From: Candidatus Buchananbacteria bacterium RIFCSPHIGHO2_02_FULL_39_17
GTDB lineage: Bacteria > Patescibacteriota > Patescibacteriia > Buchananbacterales > UBA6539
DNA length: 64,000 nucleotides
Direction: 5' to 3'
Assembly (NCBI GenBank): GCA_001817425.1
Contig: MHII01000012.1
Location: 77-64,076, forward strand
The first letter of the stretch is position 1; the number at the start of each line of letters is the position of its first letter. Below, piece after piece: positions 6,601 through 56,176 of the stretch. Position numbers and translations under genes: made by a program. The notes below the pieces were generated by a model that was not told the origin of the DNA, made no database searches, and was given only the letters and a program-made list of their open reading frames with translations.

Positions 6601-7296
6601 ATGAATGTCCAGGTTGTTATTCCGGCTTACAATGAAGCAAAAACAATTTTTGAAATTATTAGAAAACTTAAAGATCAAGTCAGTCAAATCATTACGGTTG
6701 ATGACGGTTCAACAGATGACACCGGTGAATTAGCCAAACAGGCCGGAGCAAAAGTCTTAACTCATTTTTTAAATCGTGGCCAGGGTGCAGCACTGCAAAC
6801 TGGCATTTCTTTTGCTTTGGCGAATGGGGCGGAAATTATTGTCACTTTTGACGCCGATGGTCAGCATAATCCCGATGAGATTGATCAGGTCATTAAACCA
6901 TTATTGTTGGGTGAGGTAGATGTAGTGCTGGGTTCAAGATTTCTGGAATCAAGAATTAAGAATCAAGAATTAAGAATCAAGAATGTTCCTTTAATGAGGT
7001 TCGTTGTCTTGAAACTGGCGGCTTGGTTTACCCGGCTTTATACTGGTCTTAAAGTGACCGATGCCCATAATGGTTTTCGGGCTTTTTCGGCAAAAGCCGC
7101 CAGTTTAATTGAAATTAAGCAAGACGGGATGGCGCATGCTTCAGAAATTATTGAACAAATTAAAAAACAAGGCCTAAAATTCAAAGAAGTGCCGGTGGAA
7201 ATTAATTATACCAACTACTCATTGGAGAAGGGTCAAAAGTTAAGCAATTCCTGGAGGATTGTTTGGGATTTAATCATTAAGAGAATATCAAAATGA
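6601..7296 (+). CDS. Glycosyltransferase family 2 (dolichyl-phosphate mannose/glucose synthase-like)
   Basis: VVIPAYNEAKTI, DDGSTDDT and DADGQH motifs. Likely start is ATG 6601, just after the upstream TGA; the ORF track extends it to 6523. Contains an in-frame heptamer repeat tract at 6959-6998. Confidence 0.8.
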   Translation: MNVQVVIPAYNEAKTIFEIIRKLKDQVSQIITVDDGSTDDTGELAKQAGAKVLTHFLNRGQGAALQTGISFALANGAEIIVTFDADGQHNPDEIDQVIKPLLLGEVDVVLGSRFLESRIKNQELRIKNVPLMRFVVLKLAAWFTRLYTGLKVTDAHNGFRAFSAKAASLIEIKQDGMAHASEIIEQIKKQGLKFKEVPVEINYTNYSLEKGQKLSNSWRIVWDLIIKRISK

Positions 7297-7714: not shown

Positions 7715-8791
7715 TTGGATTTTGTTATTTTGCGTATGGCCGACAGAGTATTAATTATCATTTTATGCTACAACGGCGCGGATTATCTCCGCGACTGTTT
7801 GTCTTCACTTAGTAAACTTAATTATTCTAAAGATAGTTTTGAAATTTTAGTCATTGACAACGCTTCAACTGATAATTCCGTTGCAACAATTAACAGTTTA
7901 CAATCAACAATTAACAATTTAATTTTAATTCAGAATAAAACTAATCTTGGTTTTGCCACCGGCAATAATATTGGCCTGCAATATGCCATTAACCATAATT
8001 TTGATTATGTTTATTTGTTAAACCAAGATACGGTGGTTGAGCCAGATTTTTTGGAAAAAGCTGTTGAAATCGGGGAGTCAGATATTCAAATCGGCGCGGT
8101 GCAATCAAAACTGCTTTTATTTCAAGATAAAACTAAAATTAACAGCATCGGCAATGAAATTCATTATTTAGGCTTTGGTTTTGCCGGCGGTTACCAGTTG
8201 CCAGATCAGGAGTTAGAAGTCAGAGAGATTACCTATAGTTCCGGCGCCGCCAGCCTGTACCGCATCTTAGCGTTAAAACAAGTTGGCCTCTTTAACCCTG
8301 ATTTTTTTATGTACCACGAAGATACTGATTTGGGCTGGCGGCTGTGGCTTTTTGGTTTTAAAATAATTTTAGCGCCAAAATCTGTGGTTTACCATAAATA
8401 TGAGTTTTCCCGCAGCATTCAAAAATATTATTTTATGGAACGGAACCGTTATTTGGTGCTTTTACAAAATTATAAATGGCAAACTTTGTTGTTAATTGGT
8501 CCAGCTTGCGCCTTGATGGATGTGGTGATGTTTTTTTACTCATTTTTTGCCGGCTGGTGGCGGGAAAATTTAAAAGTCTGCTGGTATTTTTGCCACCTAA
8601 AAAATTGGCAAAAAATAATAAAGACCAGACGTCGGGTCCAATCTAAACGAAAAATCACTGACCGGGAAATGGTTGAACGTTTTGTCGGTAAAATTGAGTT
8701 TCAGGATTTGGATAATCCGTTACTGACTAATTTAGTCAACCCGGTTTTTAATTTATATTGGCAAATAGTGAAGAGATTGATTTTTTGGTAG
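7715..8791 (+). CDS. Glycosyltransferase family 2 (rhamnosyltransferase-like)
   Basis: ILCYNGADYLRDCLSSL and DNASTDNS motifs plus a DxD-region. An alternative start is ATG 7736. Confidence 0.75.
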   Translation: MDFVILRMADRVLIIILCYNGADYLRDCLSSLSKLNYSKDSFEILVIDNASTDNSVATINSLQSTINNLILIQNKTNLGFATGNNIGLQYAINHNFDYVYLLNQDTVVEPDFLEKAVEIGESDIQIGAVQSKLLLFQDKTKINSIGNEIHYLGFGFAGGYQLPDQELEVREITYSSGAASLYRILALKQVGLFNPDFFMYHEDTDLGWRLWLFGFKIILAPKSVVYHKYEFSRSIQKYYFMERNRYLVLLQNYKWQTLLLIGPACALMDVVMFFYSFFAGWWRENLKVCWYFCHLKNWQKIIKTRRRVQSKRKITDREMVERFVGKIEFQDLDNPLLTNLVNPVFNLYWQIVKRLIFW

Positions 8792-8896
8792 GAAATAAAT
8801 TTTGAATTTTGAAATTTGAATTTTGAATCAATTTTGAATAACCGAATTTTGAAAAATTAAGATATTAGAATTTGAATCGAAATTCAAAATTAAAAA

Positions 8897-9238
8897 TTAG
8901 ATTTTTTTTACCTCTCTTTCTACCCATTTCTCGTATTCCAGATTAGACTCGGTTTTCCAACCCTCAATTAATGGAATTTTATAAGGGTGGAGTTTTTTTA
9001 TTTCATTTTTAACTTTTTGCCAGTTTTCTTTTTTAGTTTTAAAAATCGCCGCGATTTCTTGGTCATTAACAATTTTGCCTTGCCACCAATAACTTGATTT
9101 AATTGGGAAAAAATTGGCGCAAGCAATCAATCGCTTTTTTAATAATACCGAAGCGATTTTTTTCGCGGTTTTTAAATTAGGAAAAGTAGCGTAAATATTA
9201 ATAATCATATTTATTTGATTTTTTCTACTTGTTGTCAT
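8897..9238 (-). CDS. cutA: Divalent-cation tolerance protein CutA
   Basis: ~113 aa. The pattern IINIYATFPNLKTAKKIASVLLKKRLIACANFFP...YWWQGKI matches the CutA1 family. Confidence 0.65.
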   Translation of the reverse strand: MTTSRKNQINMIINIYATFPNLKTAKKIASVLLKKRLIACANFFPIKSSYWWQGKIVNDQEIAAIFKTKKENWQKVKNEIKKLHPYKIPLIEGWKTESNLEYEKWVEREVKKI

Positions 9239-10561: not shown

Positions 10562-10711
10562 ATTTTTATTATCTTAACATATTAAATTTATCACTTTTAA
10601 ATCTAAAAGTCCAATTGATTTTTAAAAAGAAATTTGCTAAAATTACTATATTATTTTTGTTTTTACATGATAAAACCTACAAGCTACTTTCTACAAGCTA
10701 CGAGCTAAAAT

Positions 10712-11860
10712 ATGAGAATTGCCATTATTACCCCCACTTTTCCGTCGTATGCCGGCGGCATTGGCAAGGTCGCGGCGTTTAACGCGCGAGAACTGAAAAA
10801 GCTTGGCCATCAGGTCACGGTTTTTACTCCTGACTATGAACCGGTTAAAGAAGAATTTACTGATTTAGAAATTAAGCGCATTAAGCCGCTTTTTAAATAT
10901 GGTAATGCCGCTTTTATTCCGGCTTTGGGTAAAATGCTCAAAGGTTTTGATATTATTCATCTCCATTATCCATTTTTCGGCGCCGCCGAAATTATTTGGC
11001 TCCATAATTCAAAATTCAAAATTCAAAATTCAAAATTGATTCTACATTACCATATGGATGTAGTCGGGCGCGGATGGTTAAAATTAATTTTCAAATTTCA
11101 CAATCAATTTATCTTGCCTAAAATTGTTAAAGCCGCGGATAAAATCATTTTCACTTCATTGGATTATAGTAAAAATTCAAATTTGGCAAAATGGTTGAAA
11201 AATCAGCCGTCAAAATTTGTGGCAATCCCCAACGGCGTTGACAGCCAAAATTTTTTACCTCAACTAAAAAGTCAAACCTTGCTGGAAAAATACCAGATTA
11301 ATCCTAGCGATAAAATTATCCTTTTTGTCGGCGGTTTAGACCAGGCGCATTATTTCAAAGGCATTGAATATTTACTCCAAGCGGTTTCGCGCCTGCGCCA
11401 AACCGCTTATTTTTGGAAATTAATCATTGTCGGCGAAGGTGATTTAAAAAATTATTATTCTGATTACGCCAATCAGTTAGGGCTTGATAATGAAGTAATA
11501 TTTAGTGGTTATGCTCCGGACGAGGATTTACCCAATTATTATAACTTGGCTGATGTTTGCGTTTTGCCCTCCATTGACAAATCTGAAGCTTTTGGCTTAG
11601 CTTTAATTGAGGCGATGGCGTGCGGAAAACCGGTCGTGGCAACAGATTTGGCCGGCGTGCGAAGCGTGGTTGAAGACGGGGTTAACGGGCTTTTGGCCCA
11701 GCCGAAAAATGCCGCTGATTTGGCGGCAAAAATTAATTATTTATTAATTAATCCCGAAATTGCCCAAGAGTTTGGCCACAACGGCCGGAAAAAAGTGGAA
11801 GAAGAGTATGAGTGGGGGAGGATCGGGAGAAAGCTAGATGAATTATATAAGAGTTTATAA
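10712..11860 (+). CDS. Glycosyltransferase family 4
   Basis: C-terminal EAFGLALIEAMACGKPVVATDLAGVRSVVEDGVNGLL (GT4 E-X7-E region). Contains an in-frame (attcaaa)x4 heptamer tract at 11006-11036, encoding NSKFKIQNSK. Confidence 0.8.
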   Translation: MRIAIITPTFPSYAGGIGKVAAFNARELKKLGHQVTVFTPDYEPVKEEFTDLEIKRIKPLFKYGNAAFIPALGKMLKGFDIIHLHYPFFGAAEIIWLHNSKFKIQNSKLILHYHMDVVGRGWLKLIFKFHNQFILPKIVKAADKIIFTSLDYSKNSNLAKWLKNQPSKFVAIPNGVDSQNFLPQLKSQTLLEKYQINPSDKIILFVGGLDQAHYFKGIEYLLQAVSRLRQTAYFWKLIIVGEGDLKNYYSDYANQLGLDNEVIFSGYAPDEDLPNYYNLADVCVLPSIDKSEAFGLALIEAMACGKPVVATDLAGVRSVVEDGVNGLLAQPKNAADLAAKINYLLINPEIAQEFGHNGRKKVEEEYEWGRIGRKLDELYKSL

Positions 11861-15242: not shown

Positions 15243-15360
15243 TTTTTCATTTTATCAAAAATATTGAAATTTTGCTATAATATAAATAGAATTAAGAATC
15301 AAGAATCAAGAATCAAGAATTAAGGTCATTTTACTTTGATTTTTCATCTTTAATTTTAGC

Positions 15361-20431: not shown

Positions 20432-20866
20432 ATGTCAGATTGTATTTTTTGTAAAATTGTGGCGGGTCAAATTCCGGCAGCTAAAATTTACGAGGACGAC
20501 AAAGTCTTGGCTTTTTTGGATATTAATCCGATCAATCCCGGCCATACTTTGGTTATTCCTAAAATTCATTTTTCCAATTTAACCCAAACGCCAGTTGAAG
20601 TTTCACAGAATTTAATTATGGTAATCAAAAAAATCAGTCCAGCCATCATGAAAGGCGTAGGCGCCCAAGGTTTTAATTTAGGGTTAAATAATGGTTCAAT
20701 CGCCGGCCAAATTATTTTTCATATGCATTTTCATTTAATACCGCGATTTGCCGATGATGGCCATAAACTTTGGTCTGGCCGGCAATATCAGCTAGGCGAA
20801 ATGGAAAAAGTTGCAGAAAACATAAAAAAATTCCTAATTCCTAATTCCTATTTCCTATATGGCTAA
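20432..20866 (+). CDS. HIT family hydrolase (histidine triad)
   Basis: HIT motif HMHFHLIP and the N-terminal CIFCKI zinc-binding-like motif. Confidence 0.8.
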   Translation: MSDCIFCKIVAGQIPAAKIYEDDKVLAFLDINPINPGHTLVIPKIHFSNLTQTPVEVSQNLIMVIKKISPAIMKGVGAQGFNLGLNNGSIAGQIIFHMHFHLIPRFADDGHKLWSGRQYQLGEMEKVAENIKKFLIPNSYFLYG

Positions 20867-22098: not shown

Positions 22099-22953
22099 AT
22101 GGCCAATCAACGGAAAATCCTTATCCTTGGCGCAAACGGCATGCTGGGCCACGATCTGGCTGAAATTTTTTTTGATCAAAAACCAATTCTTTGGGATATG
22201 CCAAATCTTGATATTACTGATGAATTTGCGGTCAAACAAAAATTAGCTGATTTAATGCCTTCTTTAGTGATTAATGCCGCTGCCTATACTGACGTTGATG
22301 GTGCTCAAAATCAGCCAGATTTGGCGTTTAAGGTCAATGCCGACGCCATTGGCTACTTGGCAGTTGCCTGTCAGCAATTAGGGGCGATTTTGGTGCATTA
22401 CAGCACTGAATACGTTTTTTCCGGTAACAAGGATACTGGTTATCAAGAAGACGACAAAACTGATCCGTTAAATATTTATGGCCAGTCTAAAGCCAAAGGT
22501 GAAGAGATTTTAAAACAAAATTGTGAAATGTTTTATTTAATTCGTTCAAGCTGGCTTTACGGCCGTTCACCCCAAGTCGGCAAGCCGCGCGGCTTGAATT
22601 TCGTCCAAACTATGCTAAAATTGGCAGGTGAGGGTAAAGAGATTAATGTTGTTTCCGACCAGTTTGGCAAGCCGACTTATACTTTAGACTTAGCTAAAAA
22701 AACCCGGGAAATTATTGAAACTCAAAAGCCCTGCGGCATTTATCATGCGGTTAACGAAGGTGTTTGCAGCTGGTATGAATTTGCCAAAAAAATTTTTGAA
22801 ATAAAAAATATTTCCGCAAATTTAAATTCAATTAATTCAGATCAATATCCTTTGCCTACGCCACGGCCAAAATACAGCATTTTAGTTAACACCAAATTAG
22901 AGCCGTTGCGGAAGTGGGACGAGGCGTTGCGAGATTACCTACGGCAAAGTTAA
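22099..22953 (+). CDS. rmlD: dTDP-4-dehydrorhamnose reductase
   Basis: KILILGANGMLGHDL, YGQSKAKGEE, ~284 aa. Confidence 0.85.
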   Translation: MANQRKILILGANGMLGHDLAEIFFDQKPILWDMPNLDITDEFAVKQKLADLMPSLVINAAAYTDVDGAQNQPDLAFKVNADAIGYLAVACQQLGAILVHYSTEYVFSGNKDTGYQEDDKTDPLNIYGQSKAKGEEILKQNCEMFYLIRSSWLYGRSPQVGKPRGLNFVQTMLKLAGEGKEINVVSDQFGKPTYTLDLAKKTREIIETQKPCGIYHAVNEGVCSWYEFAKKIFEIKNISANLNSINSDQYPLPTPRPKYSILVNTKLEPLRKWDEALRDYLRQS

Positions 22954-22956
22954 AAG

Positions 22957-23059
22957 TCAAAAGGCAAAAGTCAAAATTGCAATTCAAAATTCAAAAGTAA
23001 AAAGTAATAATTTTGATTTTTAACTTGAACTTTTAATTTTTAACTTTTAACTTTTGAAT
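22957..23059. repeat. Left arm of the 103-bp inverted repeat enclosing rmlA
   Basis: Its reverse complement matches 23824-23926 at 102 of 103 positions. Built from caaaag/acttttaa units. Confidence 0.85.
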
Positions 23060-23064
23060 TTTTT

Positions 23065-23781
23065 ATGAAAGGCATAATTTTAGCCGGCGGGACCGGTTCG
23101 CGCTTGGATCCGCTGACTCGAGTCACCAATAAACATTTACTACCGATCTACGACCGGCCAATGATTTATTATCCGATTCAGACTTTAGTCAAAGCTGGCA
23201 TCACTGACATTATGATTGTTTCCGGCAAAGGCCATGCCGGGCAGTTTTTGGAATTACTTCAATCTGGTAAAGAATTGGGCGCGAAGTTTTCCTATGGCGT
23301 GCAAGAAGAAGCCGGCGGCATTGCCCAAGCCTTGGCCGTCTGCCAAGATTTTGCTGACAATGATAAAATTGTGGTAATGTTAGGCGATAATATTTTGCAA
23401 AATGATATTTCTAATGCCGTCAAAGATTTTGAAAAACAAGATAAGGGCTCAAAGATATTTTTAAAAGAAGTGGAAAATCCCAAATCTTTTGGCGTGGCGC
23501 AAATTGCCGGCGACAAAATCATTGAAATTGAAGAAAAACCAAAAAACCCCAAAACCAATTTAGCGGTTATTGGGGTTTATCTGTATGATAGTCAGGTTTG
23601 GCAAGTGATTAAAACTTTGAAACCTTCAGGGCGAGGCGAATTGGAAATCACTGATGTTAATAATTTTTACGTTAAAAAAGGGGAAATGACTTTTGAAATT
23701 TTGCGCGGCTGGTGGGGAGACGGAGGTGAGTCATTTGATAGTTTATTGGCGGCCGGGAATTTGGTTGCCAAGAAAAAATAA
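23065..23781 (+). CDS. rmlA: Glucose-1-phosphate thymidylyltransferase-like sugar-phosphate nucleotidyltransferase (short form)
   Basis: MKGIILAGGTGSRLDPLTRVTNKHLLPIYDRPMIYYPI is the nucleotidyltransferase signature. Adjacent to rmlB and rmlD. Confidence 0.7.
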   Translation: MKGIILAGGTGSRLDPLTRVTNKHLLPIYDRPMIYYPIQTLVKAGITDIMIVSGKGHAGQFLELLQSGKELGAKFSYGVQEEAGGIAQALAVCQDFADNDKIVVMLGDNILQNDISNAVKDFEKQDKGSKIFLKEVENPKSFGVAQIAGDKIIEIEEKPKNPKTNLAVIGVYLYDSQVWQVIKTLKPSGRGELEITDVNNFYVKKGEMTFEILRGWWGDGGESFDSLLAAGNLVAKKK

Positions 23782-23823
23782 TTTTTCAAGCACCAAATCC
23801 AAAATCACAAGCTCCAAATAATA

Positions 23824-23926
23824 ATTCAAAAGTTAAAAGTTAAAAATTAAAAGTTCAAGTTAAAAGTCAAAATTATTACTTTTTACTTTTGAATTTTGAA
23901 TTGCAATTTTGACTTTTGCCTTTTGA
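23824..23926. repeat. Right arm of the 103-bp inverted repeat enclosing rmlA
   Basis: Reverse complement of 22957-23059 with one mismatch. Confidence 0.85.
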
Positions 23927-23983
23927 ATTTTAACTTTGATGCTTATTTATAATTTGGAATTTATTTGAGATTTAATATTTCAA

Positions 23984-25357: not shown

Positions 25358-25472
25358 AGGCAGCTTTTAGTTTGTAGGTTAATTAATTTGACTCTTGAAA
25401 AGAGGGAGAAAAAATGTTAGAATTAAGAGGTAAATAATAGTTAAATTTTAGCAGGAATTTAATTTTATTGCT

Positions 25473-30502: not shown

Positions 30503-31477
30503 TTGGCTCGCAATGACAAAATAAAAACTATGTCCAAATTCATCAAGCCATTTTCTCAACTTTCCAAAACCGACGTGAAAATTGCTGGCGGCAAGGGTGC
30601 GTCTTTAGGTGAGATGACGCATGCCAAAATTCCAGTGCCGCCAGGCTTTGTTGTATTAGCCCAAGCTTTTGACCGGTTTTTAGCGGAAACTGATTTAGTC
30701 GTGGAAGTGGAAGCGAATTTAAACAAAATAAATTATAAAGACACAAATTCCATTAACAAAGCATCAAATGTGATTCGCGATTTGATTCATGACTCAAAAA
30801 TGCCGCTTGATTTGCAAAAAGAAATTTTAGCGGAATTTAAAAAATTAAAAGCGAAGCTTGTCGCCGTTCGATCATCAGCCACAGCCGAAGATTCCTCTCA
30901 AGCGAGCTGGGCCGGAGAATTAGAAACATTTTTAAACACGACTGAGAAAAATTTATTAGGCAAAGTCAAACAATGCTGGTCATCGCTTTTTACACCTCGC
31001 GCAATTTTTTATCGCTTTGAAAAAGGATTGCGTAATTCTAAAGTATCTGTGGCGGCGGTGGTCCAGCAAATGGTTGATTCAGAAATTTCCGGCATTGCTT
31101 TTACCGTTCATCCCGTGACTAAAACTAAAAGTCAAATGATCATTGAAGCTGGCTGGGGTTTGGGTGAAGCCATAGTCTCTGGCCAGATTACGCCAGACAG
31201 TTATGTCATTGATAAAACAGATTTTTCCATTTTGGATATTAATGTATCGCAGCAAACAAAAATGTTAGTCAAAAAAGGCTCGGCTGGCGGCAATGTCTGG
31301 AAGCCAGTGCCAAAAAATCAGCAAGAAGCTCAAGTGTTATCTGGCAAACAAATAATCGAGCTAGCCAAAATTTGTGCTGGCATTGAAAAACATTACAAAA
31401 AACCGCAAGACATTGAGTGGGCATTTGCTAAAGGTAAATTTTATATTACCCAAAGCAGGCCGATTACGACGCTTTAA
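30503..31477 (+). CDS. PEP synthase / pyruvate phosphate dikinase N-terminal PEP/pyruvate-binding (ATP-grasp) domain protein
   Basis: IAGGKGASLGEM...PVPPGFVV and VAVRSSATAEDSSQASWAGELETFLN match the PPDK_N signature. It is a stand-alone domain here. Confidence 0.7.
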   Translation: MARNDKIKTMSKFIKPFSQLSKTDVKIAGGKGASLGEMTHAKIPVPPGFVVLAQAFDRFLAETDLVVEVEANLNKINYKDTNSINKASNVIRDLIHDSKMPLDLQKEILAEFKKLKAKLVAVRSSATAEDSSQASWAGELETFLNTTEKNLLGKVKQCWSSLFTPRAIFYRFEKGLRNSKVSVAAVVQQMVDSEISGIAFTVHPVTKTKSQMIIEAGWGLGEAIVSGQITPDSYVIDKTDFSILDINVSQQTKMLVKKGSAGGNVWKPVPKNQQEAQVLSGKQIIELAKICAGIEKHYKKPQDIEWAFAKGKFYITQSRPITTL

Positions 31478-31497
31478 TGAAAAATAACTTCCTCTTT

Positions 31498-31545
31498 CTC
31501 CCCCTTAAATTAAGGGGGGGGGTGAGAGGGGGTTAAATTTCAAAA
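31498..31545. repeat. Hairpin element related to the DUF559-element termini
   Basis: ctcccccttaaattaaggggggg followed by gagagggggtta, cf. 11936-11959 and 61634-61656. Confidence 0.5.
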
Positions 31546-31805
31546 TGATAATTATGCAAAAAATTTGGCGGAAAAATTTTGAAATTCAGCGGAGTCATCC
31601 GCTTTTAGCTTATGATGCGCTGAAAGTGTGTTATGAATATGGCACGATTCTGCTTGGCCGCAAATTTTTTACTGAAATATTTTGGGTTAACGAAGGAGTT
31701 AATAATACCGGTACTTATTTTATTAAGAGCGAATTAAGAAAAGCTGCGGAATTGACTTTAAAAAAAATTATCCATCATTCGGGGTTGGTGAAAAAAATAA
31801 ATTAA
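31545..31805 (+). CDS. Hypothetical small protein
   Basis: ORF only, 86 aa. Confidence 0.2.
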   Translation: MIIMQKIWRKNFEIQRSHPLLAYDALKVCYEYGTILLGRKFFTEIFWVNEGVNNTGTYFIKSELRKAAELTLKKIIHHSGLVKKIN

Positions 31806-31855
31806 GCAAAATAAGTTTTAAGCAAGATAAGCGAGATAAGCAAATCAAGCTAATT

Positions 31856-32128
31856 ATGACCAAGAGATTGAATTTAAAAATACACGGATTAGTTCAGGGC
31901 GTTGGTTTTCGCTATTTAAGTCGGAAAGAAGCGGAAAAACGCGGTTTTACCGGTTCTGTCCATAATATAAGGGATGGCGGCGTGGAGATTGTCGCTGAGG
32001 GCGAAGAGACTGACTTGAAAAAATTTATTGACTGGTGCTACAATGGAGTTGGATCCGTTCAGGTTTCCAAAATAGATATTAACTGGTCCGAGGCGACTGG
32101 TGAATTCAGGGATTTTTTGATAAGATAA
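31856..32128 (+). CDS. acyP: Acylphosphatase
   Basis: IHGLVQGVGFRY and GSVHNIRDGGVEIVAEGE are the two acylphosphatase signatures. Confidence 0.8.
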   Translation: MTKRLNLKIHGLVQGVGFRYLSRKEAEKRGFTGSVHNIRDGGVEIVAEGEETDLKKFIDWCYNGVGSVQVSKIDINWSEATGEFRDFLIR

Positions 32129-32139
32129 CGTAGATAATC

Positions 32140-32645: not shown

Positions 32646-32684
32646 CTACAAGCTACAAGCTACAAGCTACAAGCTACAAGCTAA
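32646..32684. repeat. Tandem heptamer (ctacaag)x5 immediately upstream of the pyrG start
   Basis: ctacaagctacaagctacaagctacaagctacaagcta ends 4 bp before the pyrG ATG. The same ctacaagct motif lies upstream of GT4 (10686-10705) and at the edges of the in-frame palindromic elements in murD and fpg. Confidence 0.8.
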
Positions 32685-45223: not shown

Positions 45224-46267
45224 ATGGCCACTAATTTTTTTATTATTAAAATTTTTCTTTTGACAACAGTTTCTTTTATTTTGACTTTAATTTGGACACC
45301 ATTTTTGACCCATCTTTTGTATAAGTTCCGGCTCGGCAAAGGCATCAGGGATGAAAAAGTTGCCCCGATTTTTGCCATGATTCATAAAAAGAAAGCGGGA
45401 ACGCCGACGATGGGCGGCGTTTTGGTTTGGGGGACAACTTTATTTTTAATTATTTCAATTTTTTATTTATCAAAAATTTTTGACGGGATTTTTAGTGGCT
45501 TGAATTTTTTATCTCGGAGCGAAACTCTTTTGCCCTTAGGGGCGTTAATTGCTTCAGCGATCGTTGGTTTAATTGATGATTTGTTTGACATTTGGCGGAT
45601 GGGCAAGGATGGCGGTGGCCTTAGAATGCGTCATCGCTTTATGATTTATGGATTGATTGCCGGGGTTGGCGCTTGGTGGTTTTTCTATAAATTGGGTTGG
45701 ACGATTTTATATGTGCCATTTTTTGGTTATTTGGATATTGGTCTTTGGTATATTCCTTTTTTTATTTTTATCATCATTGGGACCGCTCATGCCGTGAATT
45801 TAACTGACGGTTTGGACGGTTTGGCCGGCGGGACACTCTTAGCCGCTTTTAGCACTTACGGCGCAATTGCCTTTGCCCTTGGCCGTTACGATTTAGCAAC
45901 TTTTTGCGGGGTGATTGCCGGCGCGCTTTTGGCTTTTTTGTGGTTTAACATTAACCCGGCGCGGTTTTTCATGGGTGACACCGGTTCAATGTCACTTGGG
46001 GTCACTTTAGGCATTATTGCCATGCTCACTAACGCCGCTTTGCTTTTGCCAATTATTGGTTTTATTTTCGTGGTTGAAACAGTTTCGGTTTTAATTCAGA
46101 TGTTCTGGAAAAAAGTCTTTGGTCATAAACTTTTTCTTTCTTCGCCGCTTCATCATCACTTGGAGGCTATTGGCTGGCCAGAGCCAAAAATTGTGATGCG
46201 TTTTTGGGTCATTGCCGCGGTTTCATCAATTATTGGTTTAATTTTGTTTTTGGTGGATAAAGTGTAG
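45224..46267 (+). CDS. mraY: Phospho-N-acetylmuramoyl-pentapeptide transferase
   Basis: NAVNLTDGLDGLAGG, FMGDTGSMSLG and HHHLE motifs. Confidence 0.9.
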   Translation: MATNFFIIKIFLLTTVSFILTLIWTPFLTHLLYKFRLGKGIRDEKVAPIFAMIHKKKAGTPTMGGVLVWGTTLFLIISIFYLSKIFDGIFSGLNFLSRSETLLPLGALIASAIVGLIDDLFDIWRMGKDGGGLRMRHRFMIYGLIAGVGAWWFFYKLGWTILYVPFFGYLDIGLWYIPFFIFIIIGTAHAVNLTDGLDGLAGGTLLAAFSTYGAIAFALGRYDLATFCGVIAGALLAFLWFNINPARFFMGDTGSMSLGVTLGIIAMLTNAALLLPIIGFIFVVETVSVLIQMFWKKVFGHKLFLSSPLHHHLEAIGWPEPKIVMRFWVIAAVSSIIGLILFLVDKV

Positions 46268-46271
46268 AATT

Positions 46272-49007: not shown

Positions 49008-49011
49008 AAAT

Positions 49012-49554
49012 ATGAAACCGCAGGAAAACAATTTTGCTTATATTGACGGAGCCAATTTGCATAATGCTATTAAAGAATTAGGCTGGCAGCTCGACTATGT
49101 CAGGTTTAGAATTTGGCTTTCCGAAAAGTACGGTGTGAAAAGGGTTTACATTTTTATTGGTCTCATTGCTAAATATAAGGATTTATATACTTATTTACAG
49201 GAATCAGGTTTTACCCTTATCTTTAAAGAAGTAGTGTATGACGGCGGTGGGAAACCAAAAGGGAATTGTGACGCTGATTTAGTATTGCAGGCGGCGCGTG
49301 ATACTTATGAAAATAATTTTGAAAAGGTAATTATTGTCGCCAGTGATGGTGATTATGCTAGCTTAGTAAAGTTTTTATTAGAAAAATGGAAAATTTTAGC
49401 CTTGTTGTCGCCGAGTGAGGAAAAGAAATGCTCAATCCTTTTAAAAAGAACGGGAGTTAAAATCGCTTACCTTAAAGATCAGCAATCTATTTTAAGTTAT
49501 GGAAAAGAAAAAGCCCCCGGTAGGGACGGAACCCCACAAGGGTCTTTTTCGTAA
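49012..49554 (+). CDS. NYN-domain (LabA-like) nuclease
   Basis: YIDGANL, DADLV and ASDGDY acidic motifs in NYN order. 180 aa. Confidence 0.65.
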   Translation: MKPQENNFAYIDGANLHNAIKELGWQLDYVRFRIWLSEKYGVKRVYIFIGLIAKYKDLYTYLQESGFTLIFKEVVYDGGGKPKGNCDADLVLQAARDTYENNFEKVIIVASDGDYASLVKFLLEKWKILALLSPSEEKKCSILLKRTGVKIAYLKDQQSILSYGKEKAPGRDGTPQGSFS

Positions 49555-49596: not shown

Positions 49597-51111
49597 ATGA
49601 ATTTCACGGGTAGAAAAGTGACGGTCATGGGTTTAGGGCTCCACGGTGGTGGAGTCTCTTGCGCTAACTGGCTGATAAAGCACGGCGCTAAAGTGACGGT
49701 GACTGATTTGAAAACCAAAGAAGAGCTTAAGCCATCTTTAGATAAGTTAGCGATCAAACGATCAAGCGATCAAACGATCAAGTTAGTGCTTGGATATCAC
49801 CGTGAAAATGATTTTAGAAATGCTGATCTAATTGTTCAAAACCCGGGTGTGCCAAGGGAATCAAAATATTTGGCAATTGCCAAAAAATCTGGCGTGCCAA
49901 TTGAAAATGAAGCCAGCCTTTTTTTTAAATATTGTCCGGCAAAAATTATCGGCGTCACAGGAACGCGTGGCAAATCAACCACGTCAAGCTTAATTTATCA
50001 ACTTCTAAAAGTTAAAAGCTATCCCGACGTAAAGTCGGGATCCCGACCGAAGCGTCGGGACAAACTACAAGCTCGTAAAGTCTGGCTGGCCGGACTGCCC
50101 CAAAAGCCGATGTTAGAAATTTTAGATCAAATTAAGCCTAATGATTTGGTGGTTTTAGAGCTTTCCAGCTGGCAATTAGAAATTTTAGGCGAACAAAAAT
50201 TAAGTCCGCAAATCGCGGTTCTGACTAATATTTATCCCGATCATTTAAATCGCTATTTGGGTATGGCTGATTACGTTAAAGCTAAAATCAACATTTTTCA
50301 GTGGCAAAATAAAAATGATTTTGTCGTTTTGAATTTAGATAATTTTGAAACAAAAAAACTTGGCGGAAAAGTCAGGGCCAAAAGATTTTTGTTTTCCAAA
50401 AAATATTTTGCCGAACAAAACGGCAGCTTTATTAAAAATAAACAAATTTTTTTCCGAAAAGACGGCAAAACTTACAAACTTACTAACTTATCAACTTATA
50501 AACTTATTGGCGAGCACAATTTAGAAAATTTTTTGGCCGCGATCACGGTTGCCGGAATTTTTGGTGTTAAACCAAAAGAAATAACGGCGGCTTTGAATAA
50601 GTTTAAGGGTTTGCCGGGGCGAATTGAGTTAATCAGGGAAAAAAACGGCGTAAAATATATTAATGACACAACCGCGACCACGCCTGATGCCACCATGGCC
50701 GCTCTAAAAATATTTTTAGAGCGGCAAATCCCAAATTCTAAATCCCAAACCCTAAGTAAATTCAAAATTCAAAATTCAAGATTCAAAATTATTCTGATAG
50801 CTGGAGGAGCGTCAAAAAATATTCCTATTCAAAAATATCAAGAGTTAGCCGCAATGATAAAAAAAACTTGTAAGGCCGTGATTCTATTTGAGGGGGAAGG
50901 GAGCGATCAGATGGCCAAAGATTTAAAGGCCATAAAATTTAGAGAATTAGTGACCAATGTTTTAGGGATGTCTTCAGCGGTTGGCATTGCTAATAATTTT
51001 TCGCAAACAGGCGATATCATTTTACTCTCTCCGTCTTCAGCTTCGTTTGGTTTGTTTATTAATGAATTTGATCAGGGTGATCAATTTAATAAGATAGTTT
51101 CTGATATTTAA
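49597..51111 (+). CDS. murD: UDP-N-acetylmuramoylalanine--D-glutamate ligase
   Basis: KVTVMGLGLHGGGVSCANWL, the P-loop GVTGTRGKSTTSSL, and the Mur ligase C-domain. Three in-frame repeat insertions: 49745-49778, 50011-50071 and 50757-50793. Confidence 0.85.
   Translation: MNFTGRKVTVMGLGLHGGGVSCANWLIKHGAKVTVTDLKTKEELKPSLDKLAIKRSSDQTIKLVLGYHRENDFRNADLIVQNPGVPRESKYLAIAKKSGVPIENEASLFFKYCPAKIIGVTGTRGKSTTSSLIYQLLKVKSYPDVKSGSRPKRRDKLQARKVWLAGLPQKPMLEILDQIKPNDLVVLELSSWQLEILGEQKLSPQIAVLTNIYPDHLNRYLGMADYVKAKINIFQWQNKNDFVVLNLDNFETKKLGGKVRAKRFLFSKKYFAEQNGSFIKNKQIFFRKDGKTYKLTNLSTYKLIGEHNLENFLAAITVAGIFGVKPKEITAALNKFKGLPGRIELIREKNGVKYINDTTATTPDATMAALKIFLERQIPNSKSQTLSKFKIQNSRFKIILIAGGASKNIPIQKYQELAAMIKKTCKAVILFEGEGSDQMAKDLKAIKFRELVTNVLGMSSAVGIANNFSQTGDIILLSPSSASFGLFINEFDQGDQFNKIVSDI
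50011..50071. mobile_element. GC-rich double-hairpin element, family 1, inserted in frame in murD
   Basis: aaaagctatcccgacgtaaagtcgggatcccgaccgaagcgtcgggacaaactacaagct has two hairpins sharing the tcccgac/gtcggga stem and ctacaagct at its edges. It encodes KSYPDVKSGSRPKRRDKLQA, which is absent from canonical MurD. Confidence 0.7.
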
Positions 51112-53442: not shown

Positions 53443-53628
53443 TCAAATTAAACGGGAAGAAATAGAAGATAACTAAAATAGATTAAAAAATTCCAAATTC
53501 TAAATCCTAAATTATAAATAATATTAAAATTCAAATTTACAAATTTAAAAAAGTTTTATTCGTTTGGATTTTAGTTATTGGGATTTATTTAGGATTTAGT
53601 GCTTAGAATTTAGGATTTATCTTTATTT
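53443..53628. repeat. AT-rich palindromic element (ctaaatcc-unit inverted repeats) upstream of the patatin gene
   Basis: aattctaaatcctaaa...tttaggatttagtgcttagaatttaggattta. Shares its 3' ~30 bp with the element at 54538-54678. Both end ~5 bp before an ATG. Confidence 0.7.
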
Positions 53629-54537: not shown

Positions 54538-54678
54538 CTTAAAATTCTAAATTCTAAATCCGAAATCCTAAACAAATTCCAAATTCTAAACTCCAATTTT
54601 TTAAACAGTTTGTAATTTGTGATTTTGGATATTGTGATTTACTTAGAATTTAGTGCTTAGAATTTAGGATTTAATATT
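54538..54678. repeat. AT-rich palindromic element upstream of murC, paralogous to 53443-53628
   Basis: aaattctaaattctaaatccgaaatcctaaa...cttagaatttagtgcttagaatttaggattta. Confidence 0.7.
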
Positions 54679-56076
54679 ATGTTTGTTGATTTGGCAAAAA
54701 TTAAAAGGATCTATTTTATTGGTATTAAAGGGGTGGCAATGACTGGTTTGGCGGTGATTTGCCAAAAAATGGGTAAAGAAATTTTTGGTTCTGATGTGGC
54801 AGAAAAATTTATTACGGATAAAATTTTAGAAAAAAATCAGATTAAATCTTTTGAAAATTTTTCGATAACTAATTTAAATTGCCAGCCGGATTTAGTGGTT
54901 TTGGGCACATCTTTTAGTGATGAAAACCCTGAAGTGATTGAGGCAAAAAAGAGGAAAATAAAAATAATTTTTGATTCAGAGCTTCGGGGGCTATTAAGCC
55001 AAAAAAAAGAAACTATTGCGGTTGCGGGCATTCACGGCAAGACAACGACTACCGCCATGCTGGCTTATTTATTTTCAAAAGCCGGACTAAAACCGAGTTA
55101 TTTAATTGGTACCGGCGCGGTGCCTGATTTAGGCGGCAATTCAGATTGGGGGGTGGGGGATTATTTTATTGTTGAGGGCGATGAATATAGCCGAAGCAAA
55201 TACGATACAACGCCGAAATTTTTAGACTTGGAGCCAAAAATCAGCGTGATTACTAATATTGAATGGGAGCATGTTGATATTTATCCTGATTTGTCAGCAG
55301 TTGAAAAAGCTTTCACCGCCTTAGTTGAAAAAACTAAAGATTTAATTGTTGTCTGCGGCGATTGGCCTTCAGTCAAAAAAATTATTAAAAATAGCGATAA
55401 AAAAGTTGTGACTTATGGCTTGGGGGCGGATAATCTCTGGCAAGCGTTTGATCTTAAGCAACAATCTGACGGCACAATTTTTAAAATTAGAAAAGAAGGC
55501 GTTCGCTTAGGGGAGTTTAAAATTAAACTTTTTGGAGAGCATAATGCTTTAAACGCTCTTTCAGCCATTATTGTTGGTTTAGAGTTGGGCCTAGAGTTAG
55601 AACAAATTAAGCAGATTTTGAAAGATTTTTCCGGAGCGGAAAGGCGTTTTGATGTTTTAGAAAATAAGGGTGTCATTTTCGTTGATGATTATGGTCATCA
55701 CCCAAGTGAAATAAAAACCACGCTTAAAGCCGTTCGCCAACGTTATCCTAAAAATCAAATTTGGTGCGTATTTCAGCCCCACATGGCATCACGAACAAAA
55801 GCATTCTTAGCTGAATTCGCCCGGAGTTTTAGCGAAGTTGATCAAGTGATTTTTGCTGATATTTTTGCTTCAGCCAGAGAAAAATCTTTAGCGATTACGG
55901 CCAGAGATTTAACCAATGAAACCAAAAAATACCAGACTTCAGCGATTTACGGCGGCAGTTTGGATGAAATTACCAAATATTTAAAAAATAATTTAAAGCC
56001 GGGAATGATTTTAGTCACCATGGGCGCGGGGGATGTGTATAAAATTAGAGATAAACTAATTAATTTTAAATTTTGA
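54679..56076 (+). CDS. murC: UDP-N-acetylmuramate--L-alanine ligase
   Basis: IYFIGIKGVAMTGLAV, the P-loop GIHGKTTTTAMLA, and the DDYGHHP region. Confidence 0.9.
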   Translation: MFVDLAKIKRIYFIGIKGVAMTGLAVICQKMGKEIFGSDVAEKFITDKILEKNQIKSFENFSITNLNCQPDLVVLGTSFSDENPEVIEAKKRKIKIIFDSELRGLLSQKKETIAVAGIHGKTTTTAMLAYLFSKAGLKPSYLIGTGAVPDLGGNSDWGVGDYFIVEGDEYSRSKYDTTPKFLDLEPKISVITNIEWEHVDIYPDLSAVEKAFTALVEKTKDLIVVCGDWPSVKKIIKNSDKKVVTYGLGADNLWQAFDLKQQSDGTIFKIRKEGVRLGEFKIKLFGEHNALNALSAIIVGLELGLELEQIKQILKDFSGAERRFDVLENKGVIFVDDYGHHPSEIKTTLKAVRQRYPKNQIWCVFQPHMASRTKAFLAEFARSFSEVDQVIFADIFASAREKSLAITARDLTNETKKYQTSAIYGGSLDEITKYLKNNLKPGMILVTMGAGDVYKIRDKLINFKF

Positions 56077-56176
56077 AATTCGAATTTTGATTCAATATCT
56101 TAATATTTTAATTTTTAAAAATTCAGATATTCAAAATTGATTCAAAATTCAAAATTAAAAATTCAGATTTTTACGT

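What the first reader, a model, noticed from the sequence alone, without database searches (positions are those of the whole stretch)
6959..6998. Heptanucleotide tandem repeats embedded in frame in two glycosyltransferases and in murD: possible contingency tracts or a selfish in-frame microsatellite
The GT2 gene carries (gaatcaa/gaattaa)x5, 35 bp, encoding RIKNQELRIKN. The GT4 gene at 11006-11036 carries (attcaaa)x4 encoding NSKFKIQNSK. murD at 50757-50793 carries the same attcaaa unit x4, encoding KFKIQNSRFKI, and also has an octamer (cgatcaaa/g)x4 at 49745-49778. Related units (aatcaag x4 at 15291-15325) fill intergenic spacers.

Gain or loss of one 7-bp unit would shift the frame. In surface glycosyltransferases that is the classic architecture of phase-variable contingency loci. 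Presence of the same unit in essential murD argues for a spreading repeat that is only tolerated when total length keeps the frame.
Basis: seen in the sequence. Interest (0 to 1): 0.5.

Follow-up and report, generated by a model that had tools for sequence, protein, structure and literature searches.

The report
Seven-base microsatellites inside CPR bacterial genes
A groundwater Candidatus Buchananbacteria genome is peppered with short 7-base tandem repeats, a few of which survive in frame inside tolerant loops of two glycosyltransferases and MurD; they are mostly stable by-products of a genome-wide repeat habit, although one natural variant has lost 14 bases and broken a surface-sugar gene.

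Summary
The repeats are real. The GT2 tract lies at 6946-6984, not 6959-6998. It is 39 bp: a perfect 14-mer x2.8, or an imperfect 7-mer x5.6.

Period-7 arrays are hugely over-represented in the window: 17 against 0.06 expected. They are 20 times denser in intergenic spacers than in genes. The genome is a Candidatus Buchananbacteria MAG (CPR/Patescibacteria).

This matches the known class of genomes rich in heptanucleotide long simple sequence repeats (Mrazek 2007), apparently not yet described for CPR.

Coding tracts sit in permissive loops:
- GT2: +7-8 aa in a low-confidence coil.
- MurD: +13 aa.
- GT4: no length change. A native Lys-rich loop has become a perfect array.

All coding tracts use a stop-free sense orientation.

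Across 12-23 near-identical public contigs, every array is length-invariant except one. Contig ERZ27254845:k141_1124244 lacks exactly one 14-bp unit in GT2, which truncates it to 145 aa. So slippage occurs and can switch this surface-glycan gene off, but at low frequency. GT4 and murD show no variation.

Orthologous GT2 and GT4 loops in other heptamer-rich relatives carry independent arrays with different units. This argues for local genesis, not a spreading element.

Verdict: ordinary kind, new host lineage. The contingency reading is weakly supported for GT2 only.

The parts
6946..6984 (+). GT2 coding tract: (GAATCAAGAATTAA)x2.8, equal to an imperfect heptamer x5.6; 39 bp; encodes ESRIKNQELRIKN (aa 116-128 of 231)
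   Evidence: It is +7-8 aa relative to most orthologues. In the AF2 model it is a coil with pLDDT 66-74, below 50 at residues 120-122. A 25-bp allele (-14 bp) occurs in one public contig.
6601..7296 (+). GT2 gene (PF00535). It lies between the GtrA-like and epimerase genes upstream and DUF2304 downstream, and is probably a polyprenyl-phosphate sugar synthase.
   Evidence: JGI names for orthologues include 'polyprenyl-phospho-N-acetylgalactosaminyl synthase'.
11006..11037 (+). GT4 coding tract: perfect (AATTCAA)x4.6; 32 bp; encodes NSKFKIQNSKL (aa 99-109 of 382)
   Evidence: It is not an insertion: 70 of 88 orthologues have the same 32-aa HYPFFG..HYHMD segment. DNA period-7 identity is 0.88 here against 0.25-0.38 in array-poor relatives. 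It is invariant in all contigs.
10712..11860 (+). GT4 glycosyltransferase gene (PF13439 + PF00534)
50726..50790 (+). murD coding tract: 14-mer (AAATCCCAAACCCT)x2.1 followed by (AAATTCA)x4.7; encodes QIPNSKSQTLSKFKIQNSRFKI
   Evidence: It is a +13 aa insertion in a variable loop before the conserved IILIAGG, measured against the closest homologue. It is invariant in 13 loci.
49749..49782 (+). murD octamer tract (CGATCAAA/G)x3.9-4; encodes LAIKRSSDQTIK
   Evidence: The peptide is shared with the closest homologue P0133 (LFIKRSSDQAIK) and is +5 aa against other homologues.
50468..50507 (+). murD octamer tract (AAACTTAT)x5; encodes KTYKLTNLSTYKLI; no net length change against homologues
49597..51111 (+). 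murD gene of the dcw cluster (MurD-like_N, Mur_ligase_M, Mur_ligase_C)
7885..7919 (+). Second GT2 gene (7736-8791): imperfect (AACAATT)x5 coding tract, ATINSLQSTINNL
20829..20857 (+). (AATTCCT)x4.1 forming the C-terminal 10 codons of the HIT gene and overlapping the start of the next gene
15288..15324 (+). Intergenic array with the same GAATCAA/GAATTAA units as the GT2 tract, in a divergent promoter region
8798..8899 (+). Intergenic AATTCAA-family arrays (reverse-complement orientation followed by forward) that fold into a hairpin
   Evidence: Fold z-score -3.4.
10677..10707 (+). (CTACAAG)x4.4 ending 4 nt before the GT4 start codon
32646..32683 (+). Perfect (CTACAAG)x5.4 ending 5 nt before the CTP synthase start codon
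20340..20397 (+). Intergenic (AAGTCAA)x8.4 array
53488..53619 (+). Intergenic array plus inverted array (AAATTCT ... ATTTAGG) forming a hairpin between murG and the patatin gene
   Evidence: Fold z-score -4.4.
54542..54673 (+). Intergenic array plus inverted array (AAATTCT ... TTAGAAT) forming a hairpin between the patatin gene and murC
   Evidence: Fold z-score -4.7.
56062..56165 (+). Intergenic AATTTTA and ATTCAAA arrays between murC and murB

Best explanation
The in-frame tracts are the coding-region survivors of a genome-wide population of heptanucleotide microsatellites, with some octanucleotide ones. This Candidatus Buchananbacteria lineage is one of the sporadically distributed bacterial lineages rich in heptanucleotide long simple sequence repeats.

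Inferred origin. Arrays arise locally when AT-rich proto-repeats are expanded and homogenised by slipped-strand mispairing or intra-array template switching. They are not inserted as a mobile element.

Shown filter. Arrays fill intergenic spacers freely. Inside genes selection leaves only arrays that meet three conditions:
1. The unit has no stop codon in the sense orientation.
2. The net length change is a whole number of codons. It is 0 codons in GT4, about +7-8 aa in GT2 and +13 aa in MurD.
3. The position is a structurally permissive, length-variable surface loop.

Shown stability. At 4-6 units the arrays are stable on the time scale that separates co-occurring strains. Whole-unit slippage does happen occasionally. 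One natural allele has lost one 14-bp unit of the GT2 tract and truncates the enzyme.

Inferred consequence. That truncation inactivates the GT2. The tracts are therefore mainly mutational by-products. They lengthen loops and occasionally knock out a gene. They are not dedicated high-frequency switches.
For: Enrichment:
- Period-7 arrays: 17 observed against 0.06 expected. Period 8: 5 against 0.16.
- 12 of the 17 lie in the 10.5% of the window that is intergenic. Density is 17.9 against 0.87 per 10 kb, p = 6.6e-9.
- The same unit families occur in genes and in spacers, on both strands in spacers.

Coding constraints:
- AATTCAA is stop-free in all three sense frames and has stops in all three antisense frames. 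Coding copies are all in the sense orientation.
- The GT2 tract sits between the conserved LGSRFL and IPxxRxxxLKLA motifs, where loop length varies among 120 orthologues. In the AF2 model it is a low-confidence coil.
- The MurD heptamer tract is a +13 aa insertion in a variable loop.
- The GT4 tract has no length change. Orthologues encode WL..(K/S)KFK.Q(G).K with non-repetitive DNA.

Local genesis:
- Orthologous GT2 loops carry arrays of different units: AAAGTTC in L025, AAACCTA/CAACCTA in L027, and a degenerate 14-mer in L028.
- The L027 GT4 loop carries ACTCAAA-like units.
- Their nearest relatives have short loops.

Lineage pattern: array density is 2.7-5.9 per 10 kb in this and a few other lineages, 0-0.5 in other Buchananbacteria, and 0 in most other phyla.

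Stability: all arrays are invariant across strain contigs except a single -14 bp event.

Precedent: heptanucleotide LSSRs are over-represented, phylogenetically sporadic and mostly intergenic. A polymerase-slippage hypothesis has been proposed for them (Mrazek 2007, as summarised in PMC4679880, and PMC4692102).
Against: - The mechanism that favours period 7 is not shown here or anywhere else.
- A perfect 14-mer array in GT2 seems old at the insertion level, because the related P0014 and P0016 share the long loop. That implies ongoing homogenisation, which in a coding region should pass through out-of-frame states. This fits a dispensable or switchable gene better than a purely passive tract.
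- The only array-length change found anywhere happens to fall in a surface-glycan gene.
- Consensus contigs hide minority alleles, so within-population heterogeneity could be much higher than I can see.
Confidence: 0.7

Rival explanations
1. The GT2 tract, and perhaps the GT4 tract, is a true contingency locus. Reversible slipped-strand gain or loss of 7- or 14-bp units switches a surface-glycan enzyme ON and OFF in the population, as in NeuO of E. coli K1 or the H. influenzae LOS genes.
For: - The unit length is not divisible by 3 and lies inside the ORF.
- A natural -14 bp allele removes exactly one perfect unit and truncates the GT2. The 145-aa product loses the invariant TDxHNGFRA and DGMAHASE motifs.
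- It is the only array-length change seen in about 60 kb compared across strains.
- The gene belongs to a GtrA / GT2 / DUF2304 / GT-C-type surface glycosylation cluster.
- The 25-bp allele keeps 1.8 units, so reversion is possible in principle.
- Heptanucleotide coding switches are known: in NeuO the gene is ON only when the repeat number is divisible by 3 (PMC13001214).
Against: - Only 1 of 12 distinct contigs differs, and only one truncated product exists in the whole protein collection. By contrast, neuO has 3-53 repeats among 64 genomes, 65.6% of them OFF.
- The tract is short (2.8 perfect units), lies mid-gene and has essentially one ON length. The next in-phase codon would be TAA (and the sequence).
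- The GT4 tract is perfect but invariant, and orthologues encode the same stretch without repeats.
- The same kind of tract sits in essential murD and in the HIT gene.
Confidence: 0.18
2. The tracts are copies of a small selfish or mobile repeat that inserts into new sites, including genes, and persists only where it keeps the reading frame.
For: - Identical units recur at unlinked loci. AATTCAA is in GT4, murD and at least 4 spacers. GAATCAA/GAATTAA is in GT2 and in the spacer at 15288.
- In L025 the unit AAAGTTC is in both GT2 genes.
- One 119-nt array-built segment exists as two 97% identical inverted copies.
Against: - The GT4 tract is not an insertion.
- Arrays have no conserved ends, no fixed length and no target-site duplication.
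- Unit sequences form a graded family differing by single substitutions.
- Orthologous sites in other genomes carry different units.
- No transposase or other element gene is associated with them.
Confidence: 0.06
3. The DNA periodicity is secondary to selection on the peptide. Lys/Ser/Gln-rich 7-residue repeats such as KFKIQNS are selected as functional basic loops, for example for membrane or lipid-carrier contact.
For: - The GT4 loop is conserved as a Lys-rich segment of fixed length across orthologues.
- GT4 and MurD encode the same KFKIQNS peptide.
Against: - The same nucleotide units fill non-coding spacers on both strands.
- Synonymous positions are identical between units, which peptide selection does not require.
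- Most GT2 and MurD orthologues lack the segment altogether.
Confidence: 0.04

Closest known systems
Genomes rich in heptanucleotide long simple sequence repeats (LSSRs; Mrazek, Guo & Shah 2007). Examples: STRR heptamers of heterocystous cyanobacteria, GGGAATC repeats of Xanthomonas, TAACTGA repeats of marine Beggiatoaceae.
   Same: - Period 7 dominates over all other periods.
- Arrays have 2-9 units and are overwhelmingly intergenic.
- There are several unit sequences per genome.
- Phylogenetic distribution is sporadic.
- Some arrays lie directly upstream of start codons.
- Some occur as inverted pairs.
- A few occur inside ORFs at peripheral or tolerant positions. MacGregor lists a MurG example.
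(PMC4679880; PMC4692102; window data.)
   Different: - The host is a CPR/Patescibacteria genome, and I found no published description for this group.
- Units are AT-rich and varied, not a single dominant heptamer.
- Coding arrays here are internal loop insertions in conserved enzymes, rather than lying at protein termini.
NeuO O-acetyltransferase of E. coli K1 (CUS-3 prophage): a heptanucleotide (AAGACTC)n coding-region phase switch
   Same: - A 7-bp unit lies inside the ORF of a surface-polysaccharide-modifying enzyme.
- The frame is kept only for certain unit numbers.
- The repeat is translated into a 7-residue periodic peptide.
(PMC13001214.)
   Different: - NeuO tracts lie at the 5' end, are long (3-53 units), differ between almost all strains (65.6% OFF) and vary within cultures.
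- Here the tracts are 4-6 units, lie mid-gene, and differ in only 1 of 12 contigs for GT2 and in none for GT4 and murD.
Haemophilus influenzae hepta- and octanucleotide SSR loci (hmw promoters, TonB-dependent receptor ORFs)
   Same: SSRs with 7- or 8-bp units are associated with surface functions. Frameshifted alleles are seen among strains (PMC2651432).
   Different: Those tracts have 6-38 units and vary between strains. They occur in a genome where SSRs are concentrated in contingency genes, not spread through every spacer.
Borg tandem repeats that create in-frame amino-acid repeats (Schoelmerich et al. 2023, PMC9879509)
   Same: Pervasive, recently formed, independently arising tandem repeats occur both between genes and in frame within genes. 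In genes they add low-complexity or disordered loop segments (abstract).
   Different: Known from general knowledge of that paper rather than from reading it here: Borg genic repeats have unit lengths divisible by 3. Here the unit is 7 or 8 bp, so only certain total lengths keep the frame.

Membership tests
SSR-mediated phase-variable contingency locus | Tandem repeat with unit length not divisible by 3, inside the ORF (or in the promoter), so that unit gain or loss changes expression | tested here: met
   Units of 7, 8 and 14 bp lie inside the GT2, GT4 and murD ORFs.
SSR-mediated phase-variable contingency locus | Frequent unit-number polymorphism among closely related strains or within a population | tested here: not met
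   - GT2: 1 of 12 distinct contigs differs (-14 bp), and only one truncated product is on record.
- GT4 and murD: no variant in any contig inspected. Neighbour-gene look-ups found 11 and 23 contigs respectively, with normal gene lengths in every complete copy shown.
- Only consensus assemblies were available. Minority alleles in reads could not be examined.
SSR-mediated phase-variable contingency locus | Long, perfect tract (typically at least 6-10 units) giving high slippage rates, usually near the 5' end of the gene | tested here: not met
   - GT2: 2.8 perfect 14-mers, at aa 116 of 231.
- GT4: 4.6 perfect 7-mers, at aa 99 of 382.
- murD: 4.7 units at 92%, at aa 388 of 504.

SSR-mediated phase-variable contingency locus | The gene encodes a surface or host-interaction function whose loss is tolerated | tested here: inconclusive
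   GT2 and GT4 lie in a surface-glycan cluster, and a truncated GT2 allele exists in nature. murD of the dcw cluster and the HIT gene do not fit.
SSR-mediated phase-variable contingency locus | Reversible ON/OFF switching demonstrated | not testable with these tools
   This needs read-level or culture data. The organism is uncultured.
Genome rich in heptanucleotide LSSRs (Mrazek 2007 class; STRR-like) | Period-7 arrays longer and more numerous than the genome's composition predicts, exceeding other periods | tested here: met
   17 observed against 0.06 expected. Period 7 is the commonest period among 46 arrays.
Genome rich in heptanucleotide LSSRs (Mrazek 2007 class; STRR-like) | Predominantly intergenic location | tested here: met
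   Arrays are 20 times denser in intergenic DNA. 13.5% of intergenic bases are covered against 1.0% of coding bases.
Genome rich in heptanucleotide LSSRs (Mrazek 2007 class; STRR-like) | Lineage-specific, sporadic phylogenetic distribution | tested here: met
   Arrays are rich in the window, L025-L028, L032, L077 and L089. They are nearly absent in the other Buchananbacteria (L040, L041, L043) and in most of about 80 loci from other phyla. Only windows of 4-20 kb per genome were sampled.
Small mobile repeat (MITE / REP-like element) | Copies with conserved ends and length, often terminal inverted repeats and target-site duplication | tested here: not met
   - Arrays differ in unit, copy number and boundaries.
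- The GT4 tract replaces native sequence without any length change.
- Only one long duplicated segment exists: a 119-nt inverted repeat.
In-frame amino-acid tandem repeats of the Borg type | Genic repeat unit length divisible by 3 | tested here: not met
   Units are 7, 8 or 14 bp.

The most novel reading that the evidence does not exclude
The GT2 tract may be the first simple-sequence-repeat phase switch seen in a CPR/Patescibacteria bacterium. Slippage in 14-bp steps would toggle a PpgS/GtrB-like polyprenyl-phosphate sugar synthase, and so a surface-glycan decoration relevant to host attachment or phage adsorption.

More broadly, a lineage-specific heptamer-generating process would act as an evolvability mechanism. 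It repeatedly writes new 7-residue-periodic loops into the same permissive sites of conserved enzymes: independent arrays with different units sit in the orthologous GT2 and GT4 loops.
Probability: 0.17. Interest if true: 0.7.

Novelty: new member of a known kind. Interest (0 to 1): 0.38.

Why it matters
CPR bacteria are uncultured, ultra-small episymbionts. Their surface glycans probably mediate host contact and phage susceptibility, and no mechanism of phenotypic switching is documented for them.

Three points make this a usable case:
- Some CPR lineages are rich in heptanucleotide repeats.
- Such repeats are written in frame into loops of conserved enzymes.
- One natural allele knocks out a glycan gene by whole-unit slippage.

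Existing metagenome reads can test directly whether SSR-based variation operates in CPR. The contrast between heptamer-rich and heptamer-poor sister lineages within one candidate phylum is also a natural comparison for the unanswered question of why 7 bp is the favoured microsatellite period in bacteria.

If the tracts prove stable, the finding is simply another example of a known genomic habit. It also gives a practical caution: such tracts cause split or truncated gene calls in MAGs.

Tried and rejected
- Chance or low complexity in an AT-rich genome: rejected by Markov and dinucleotide shuffles.
- Assembly artefact: rejected for the arrays themselves, which are identical in more than 10 independent assemblies. 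For the -14 bp allele I cannot exclude an assembly or library artefact. However, the tract (39 bp) is far shorter than the final k-mer (141) and than read length. The deletion is exactly one unit. The contig is otherwise an ordinary member of the population, with 10 SNPs in 21 kb.
- My first home-made repeat detector was too strict and too noisy at short periods. I replaced it with TRF.
It returned only 11 loci, none from the same species, so it added no alleles.
- Protein-exact look-ups of GT2, GT4 and MurD are biased towards intact alleles. I repeated the census through the neighbouring genes DUF2304, GT4b and NYN.
- A search with the truncated 145-aa product for other OFF alleles found only the one known contig.
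- A single ancestral insertion shared by all long-loop GT2 orthologues was considered, because four lineages have the same loop length. The NJ tree without the loop puts only the window, P0014 and P0016 together. P0025 and P0127 have short-loop nearest relatives.
- A simple 21-bp duplication as the origin of the GT2 tract was rejected. The tract is perfect at period 14 but has two mismatches at period 21 (read from the sequence).
- Literature searches for SSRs or phase variation in Patescibacteria or Parcubacteria found nothing relevant.
Full report
**Origin of the window.**
The MurD, GT4 and GT2 proteins are exact matches to proteins of Candidatus Buchananbacteria MAGs from groundwater (OGY43410.1, OGY49269.1 and others). 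The window is 99.9% identical to contig MHIB01000037.1 of GCA_001817295.1 and to many ENA and JGI metagenome contigs. GC content is about 36-37%. Called genes cover 89.5% of the window.

**Checking the observation.**
The GT2 tract is GAATCAAGAATTAAGAATCAAGAATTAAGAATCAAGAAT at 6946-6984.
- It is 39 bp, a perfect 14-mer x2.8 or an 87% heptamer x5.6.
- The interval I was given, 6959-6998, starts 13 bp inside the tract and runs 14 bp beyond it.
- It lies in frame in a PF00535 GT2 gene (6601-7296) and encodes ESRIKNQELRIKN.

The other tracts are as described:
- GT4: 11006-11037, perfect (AATTCAA)x4.6.
- murD heptamer: 50758-50790, (AAATTCA)x4.7.
- murD octamer: 49749-49782.
- Intergenic: 15288-15324, with the same GAATCAA/GAATTAA units as the GT2 tract.

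murD also has a 14-mer x2.1 at 50726-50755 and a second octamer x5 at 50468-50507. The second GT2 gene and the C-terminus of a HIT gene carry heptamer tracts too.

The repeats are far beyond chance. At TRF score >=40 there are 17 period-7 arrays. Third-order Markov shuffles gave a mean of 0.06 and a maximum of 1 in 50. For period 8 the figures are 5 against 0.16.

**The tracts belong to a genome-wide phenomenon.**
Of the 17 strong heptamer arrays, 12 lie in the 10.5% of the window that is intergenic. That is 17.9 against 0.87 per 10 kb, a 20-fold difference (p = 6.6e-9). Arrays cover 13.5% of intergenic bases and 1.0% of coding bases.

Units form a few related AT-rich families:
- AATTCAA, in at least six places on both strands.
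- GAATCAA/GAATTAA.
- AAGTCAA.
- AAATTCT.
- CTACAAG.

Many spacers hold an array followed by its reverse complement and fold into long hairpins, with z-scores of -3.4 to -5.7.

The habit is lineage-specific:

| Loci | Period-7 arrays per 10 kb |
|---|---|
| Window | 2.7 |
| Several related Parcubacteria contigs (L025-L028, L032) | 4.4-5.9 |
| A 46% GC uncultured bacterium (L077) | 4.8 |
| A 67% GC Thermoanaerobaculia MAG (L089) | 3.4 |
| Three other Buchananbacteria species (L040, L041, L043) | 0-0.5 |
| Most of about 80 loci from other phyla, including low-GC archaea | 0 |

This matches the published class of genomes rich in long simple sequence repeats. In that class heptanucleotides are the most abundant unit, the distribution across taxa is sporadic, and most arrays are intergenic. 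A link to the stretch of DNA held by the polymerase has been proposed but not shown (Mrazek 2007, as summarised in PMC4679880, and PMC4692102). I found no paper describing this for Patescibacteria.

**What the coding tracts are: GT2.**
Among 120 orthologues the segment between LGSRFL and IPxxRxxxLKLA is usually 12 residues. The window has 20. In an AlphaFold model (mean pLDDT 85.9) the tract is a coil between strand 108-112 and helix 131-148. Its pLDDT is 66-74 and falls below 50 at residues 120-122.

Long loops arose several times. A neighbour-joining tree built without the loop groups the window only with P0014 and P0016. P0025, P0127, P0066 and others have short-loop nearest relatives.

Where I could read the DNA, the long loops of other lineages are also heptamer arrays, but with different units:
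- (AAAGTTC)x4.9 in Parcubacteria GW2011_GWA2_38_13 (L025, L026).
- (AAACCTA/CAACCTA)x5.1 in L027.
- A degenerate 14-mer in L028.

**What the coding tracts are: GT4.**
The tract is not an insertion. In 70 of 88 orthologues the HYPFFG..HYHMD segment has the same 32 residues, and the loop is Lys-rich throughout. The consensus is WLYKRKFKKQGAKIVL, and some relatives read SSKFKAQGSKL.

The DNA of that loop has a period-7 identity of 0.25-0.38 in array-poor Buchananbacteria, 0.66 in L027 and 0.88 in the window. A native loop has therefore been homogenised into a perfect array without any change in length. Starting from a guessed codon sequence for an SSKFKAQGSKL-like ancestor (I did not read that DNA), only a handful of GC-to-AT changes would be needed. 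This step is inference.

**What the coding tracts are: MurD.**
- The heptamer tract is a +13 aa insertion in a variable loop just before the conserved IILIAGG.
- The first octamer tract is +5 aa, and its peptide is shared with the closest homologue (62% identity).
- The second octamer causes no length change.

**Orientation and frame.**
AATTCAA has no stop codon in any sense frame and has stops in all three antisense frames. Its coding copies are all in the sense orientation. In the GT2 frame the next in-phase codon after the tract would be TAA, so the array is at its maximum stop-free length (and the sequence).

**Is the unit number polymorphic?**
I compared 24 strain loci, 99.7-100% identical, covering window 700-61111. 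Only one repeat-length difference appeared. Contig ERZ27254845:k141_1124244 lacks exactly one 14-bp unit of the GT2 tract, giving 25 bp instead of 39. The gene is then called as a 145-aa and a 100-aa ORF. The 145-aa product keeps the DXD region but loses the invariant TDxHNGFRA and DGMAHASE motifs, so loss of function is inferred.

Protein-exact look-ups pre-select intact alleles, so I repeated the census through neighbouring genes:

| Neighbour used | Contigs found | Result |
|---|---|---|
| DUF2304 | 11 | One truncated GT2 (the same contig) |
| GT4b | 11 | GT4 has its normal length wherever it is complete |
| NYN | 23 | MurD is always 504 or 518 aa; the 518-aa form is a longer N-terminal gene call, associated with a 1-bp difference upstream of murD |

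Tract lengths extracted from every locus are invariant for all 20 arrays tested, apart from GT2. There, one of 12 distinct contigs is short. A search of the whole protein collection with the truncated product found only that one record.

For comparison, the heptanucleotide switch of neuO has 3-53 repeats among 64 E. coli genomes, 65.6% of them OFF, and it varies within a culture (PMC13001214).

**Interpretation.**
The best-supported reading is that these are coding-region survivors of a lineage-specific heptanucleotide microsatellite process. Selection has filtered them by stop-free orientation, whole-codon length change and loop permissiveness. They are stable at 4-6 units, but rare whole-unit slippage can inactivate a gene.

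It is not supported as mobility, for three reasons:
- The GT4 tract is not inserted.
- Orthologous loops carry different units.
- There are no element boundaries.

The contingency idea is not supported for GT4 or murD. For GT2 it remains possible but weak. Three points favour it:
- The -14 bp allele is real-looking.
- It falls in a GtrA / GT2 / DUF2304 / GT-C-type surface-glycosylation cluster.
- The array is still perfect although the loop insertion seems to predate the split from P0014 and P0016, which hints at continuing slippage.

Against it, the frequency is low, the tract is short and mid-gene, and it has effectively one ON length.

**Limits.**
- All polymorphism evidence comes from consensus assemblies. 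Minority alleles, reversibility and the authenticity of the 25-bp allele at read level could not be tested.
- Genome-wide statements rest on a 64-kb window and on samples of 4-20 kb from other genomes.
- The cause of the 7-bp preference is unknown.

Noticed in passing
window 22945-23063 and 23820-23938: A 119-nt segment built from heptamer arrays is present as two inverted copies, 97% complementary. They flank the 717-bp rmlA-like NTP-transferase gene (23065-23781) of the dTDP-sugar operon. Each arm is itself a hairpin. Recombination between the arms would invert the gene, which could be another route to surface-glycan variation. The two strain contigs that cover it have the same orientation.
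   Followed up: partly
window 10677-10707, 32646-32683 and 25364-25377 (- strand): CTACAAG arrays end 4-5 nt before the ATG of GT4 and of CTP synthase, both reading CTACAAGCTAAAA(n)ATG. I saw no obvious Shine-Dalgarno sequence in the 4-5 nt between array and ATG (not scanned for). A degenerate dimer lies 6 nt before the start of the PEGA-domain gene. This resembles the TAACTGA repeats directly upstream of start codons in marine Beggiatoaceae (PMC4679880), which were proposed to bind a translational regulator.
   Followed up: partly
window 8792-8900, 53470-53619, 54538-54678, 56077-56176; also L077, L089, L095: Intergenic spacers often hold a heptamer array followed by its reverse complement. 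These fold into long imperfect hairpins with z-scores of -3.4 to -5.7. The same architecture (array plus inverted array) appears in unrelated heptamer-rich genomes of very different GC content, for example AGTTGGC...GCCAACC in a 67% GC Thermoanaerobaculia MAG. The function (terminator, mRNA stabiliser or mere by-product) is unknown.
   Followed up: partly
L025 3652-3685 and 4871-4904; L027 2526-2561 and 6586-6616: In other heptamer-rich Parcubacteria the orthologous GT2 loop, the second GT2 gene and the GT4 loop also carry in-frame heptamer arrays. Their units are specific to each genome: AAAGTTC twice in L025, and AAACCTA and ACTCAAA in L027.
   Followed up: yes
window 45224-49554: The dcw cell-wall cluster is interrupted. 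An MmeI/Eco57I-like N6-methyltransferase-restriction fusion (46272-49007, 911 aa) and a NYN-domain gene (49012-49554) sit between mraY and murD. A patatin-like phospholipase gene (53629-54537) sits between murG and murC.
   Followed up: no
window 50017-50079 (MurD aa 141-161): MurD carries a further lineage-specific insertion of about 18 aa (SYPDVKSGSRPKRRDKLQARK) that is not repetitive DNA. The closest homologue has a shorter version.
   Followed up: no
window 11952: A 1-bp deletion polymorphism in the spacer between the two GT4 genes is shared by four strain contigs (L011, L012, L015, L017). It is the only other indel in the well-aligned strain comparison.
   Followed up: no
window 31300-32130, compared with L023 and L024: There is a locally divergent patch with several small indels and many SNPs between strain contigs (98.3% identity in L024). 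It lies upstream of the ribosomal protein L9 gene, around the small hypothetical and acylphosphatase genes. This contrasts with about 99.9% identity elsewhere.
   Followed up: no
L040, L041, L043 compared with the window: Other Buchananbacteria species with similar GC content (38-43%) have almost no heptamer arrays in 14-21 kb around the same gene cluster. The repeat habit therefore differs sharply between species of one candidate phylum.
   Followed up: partly
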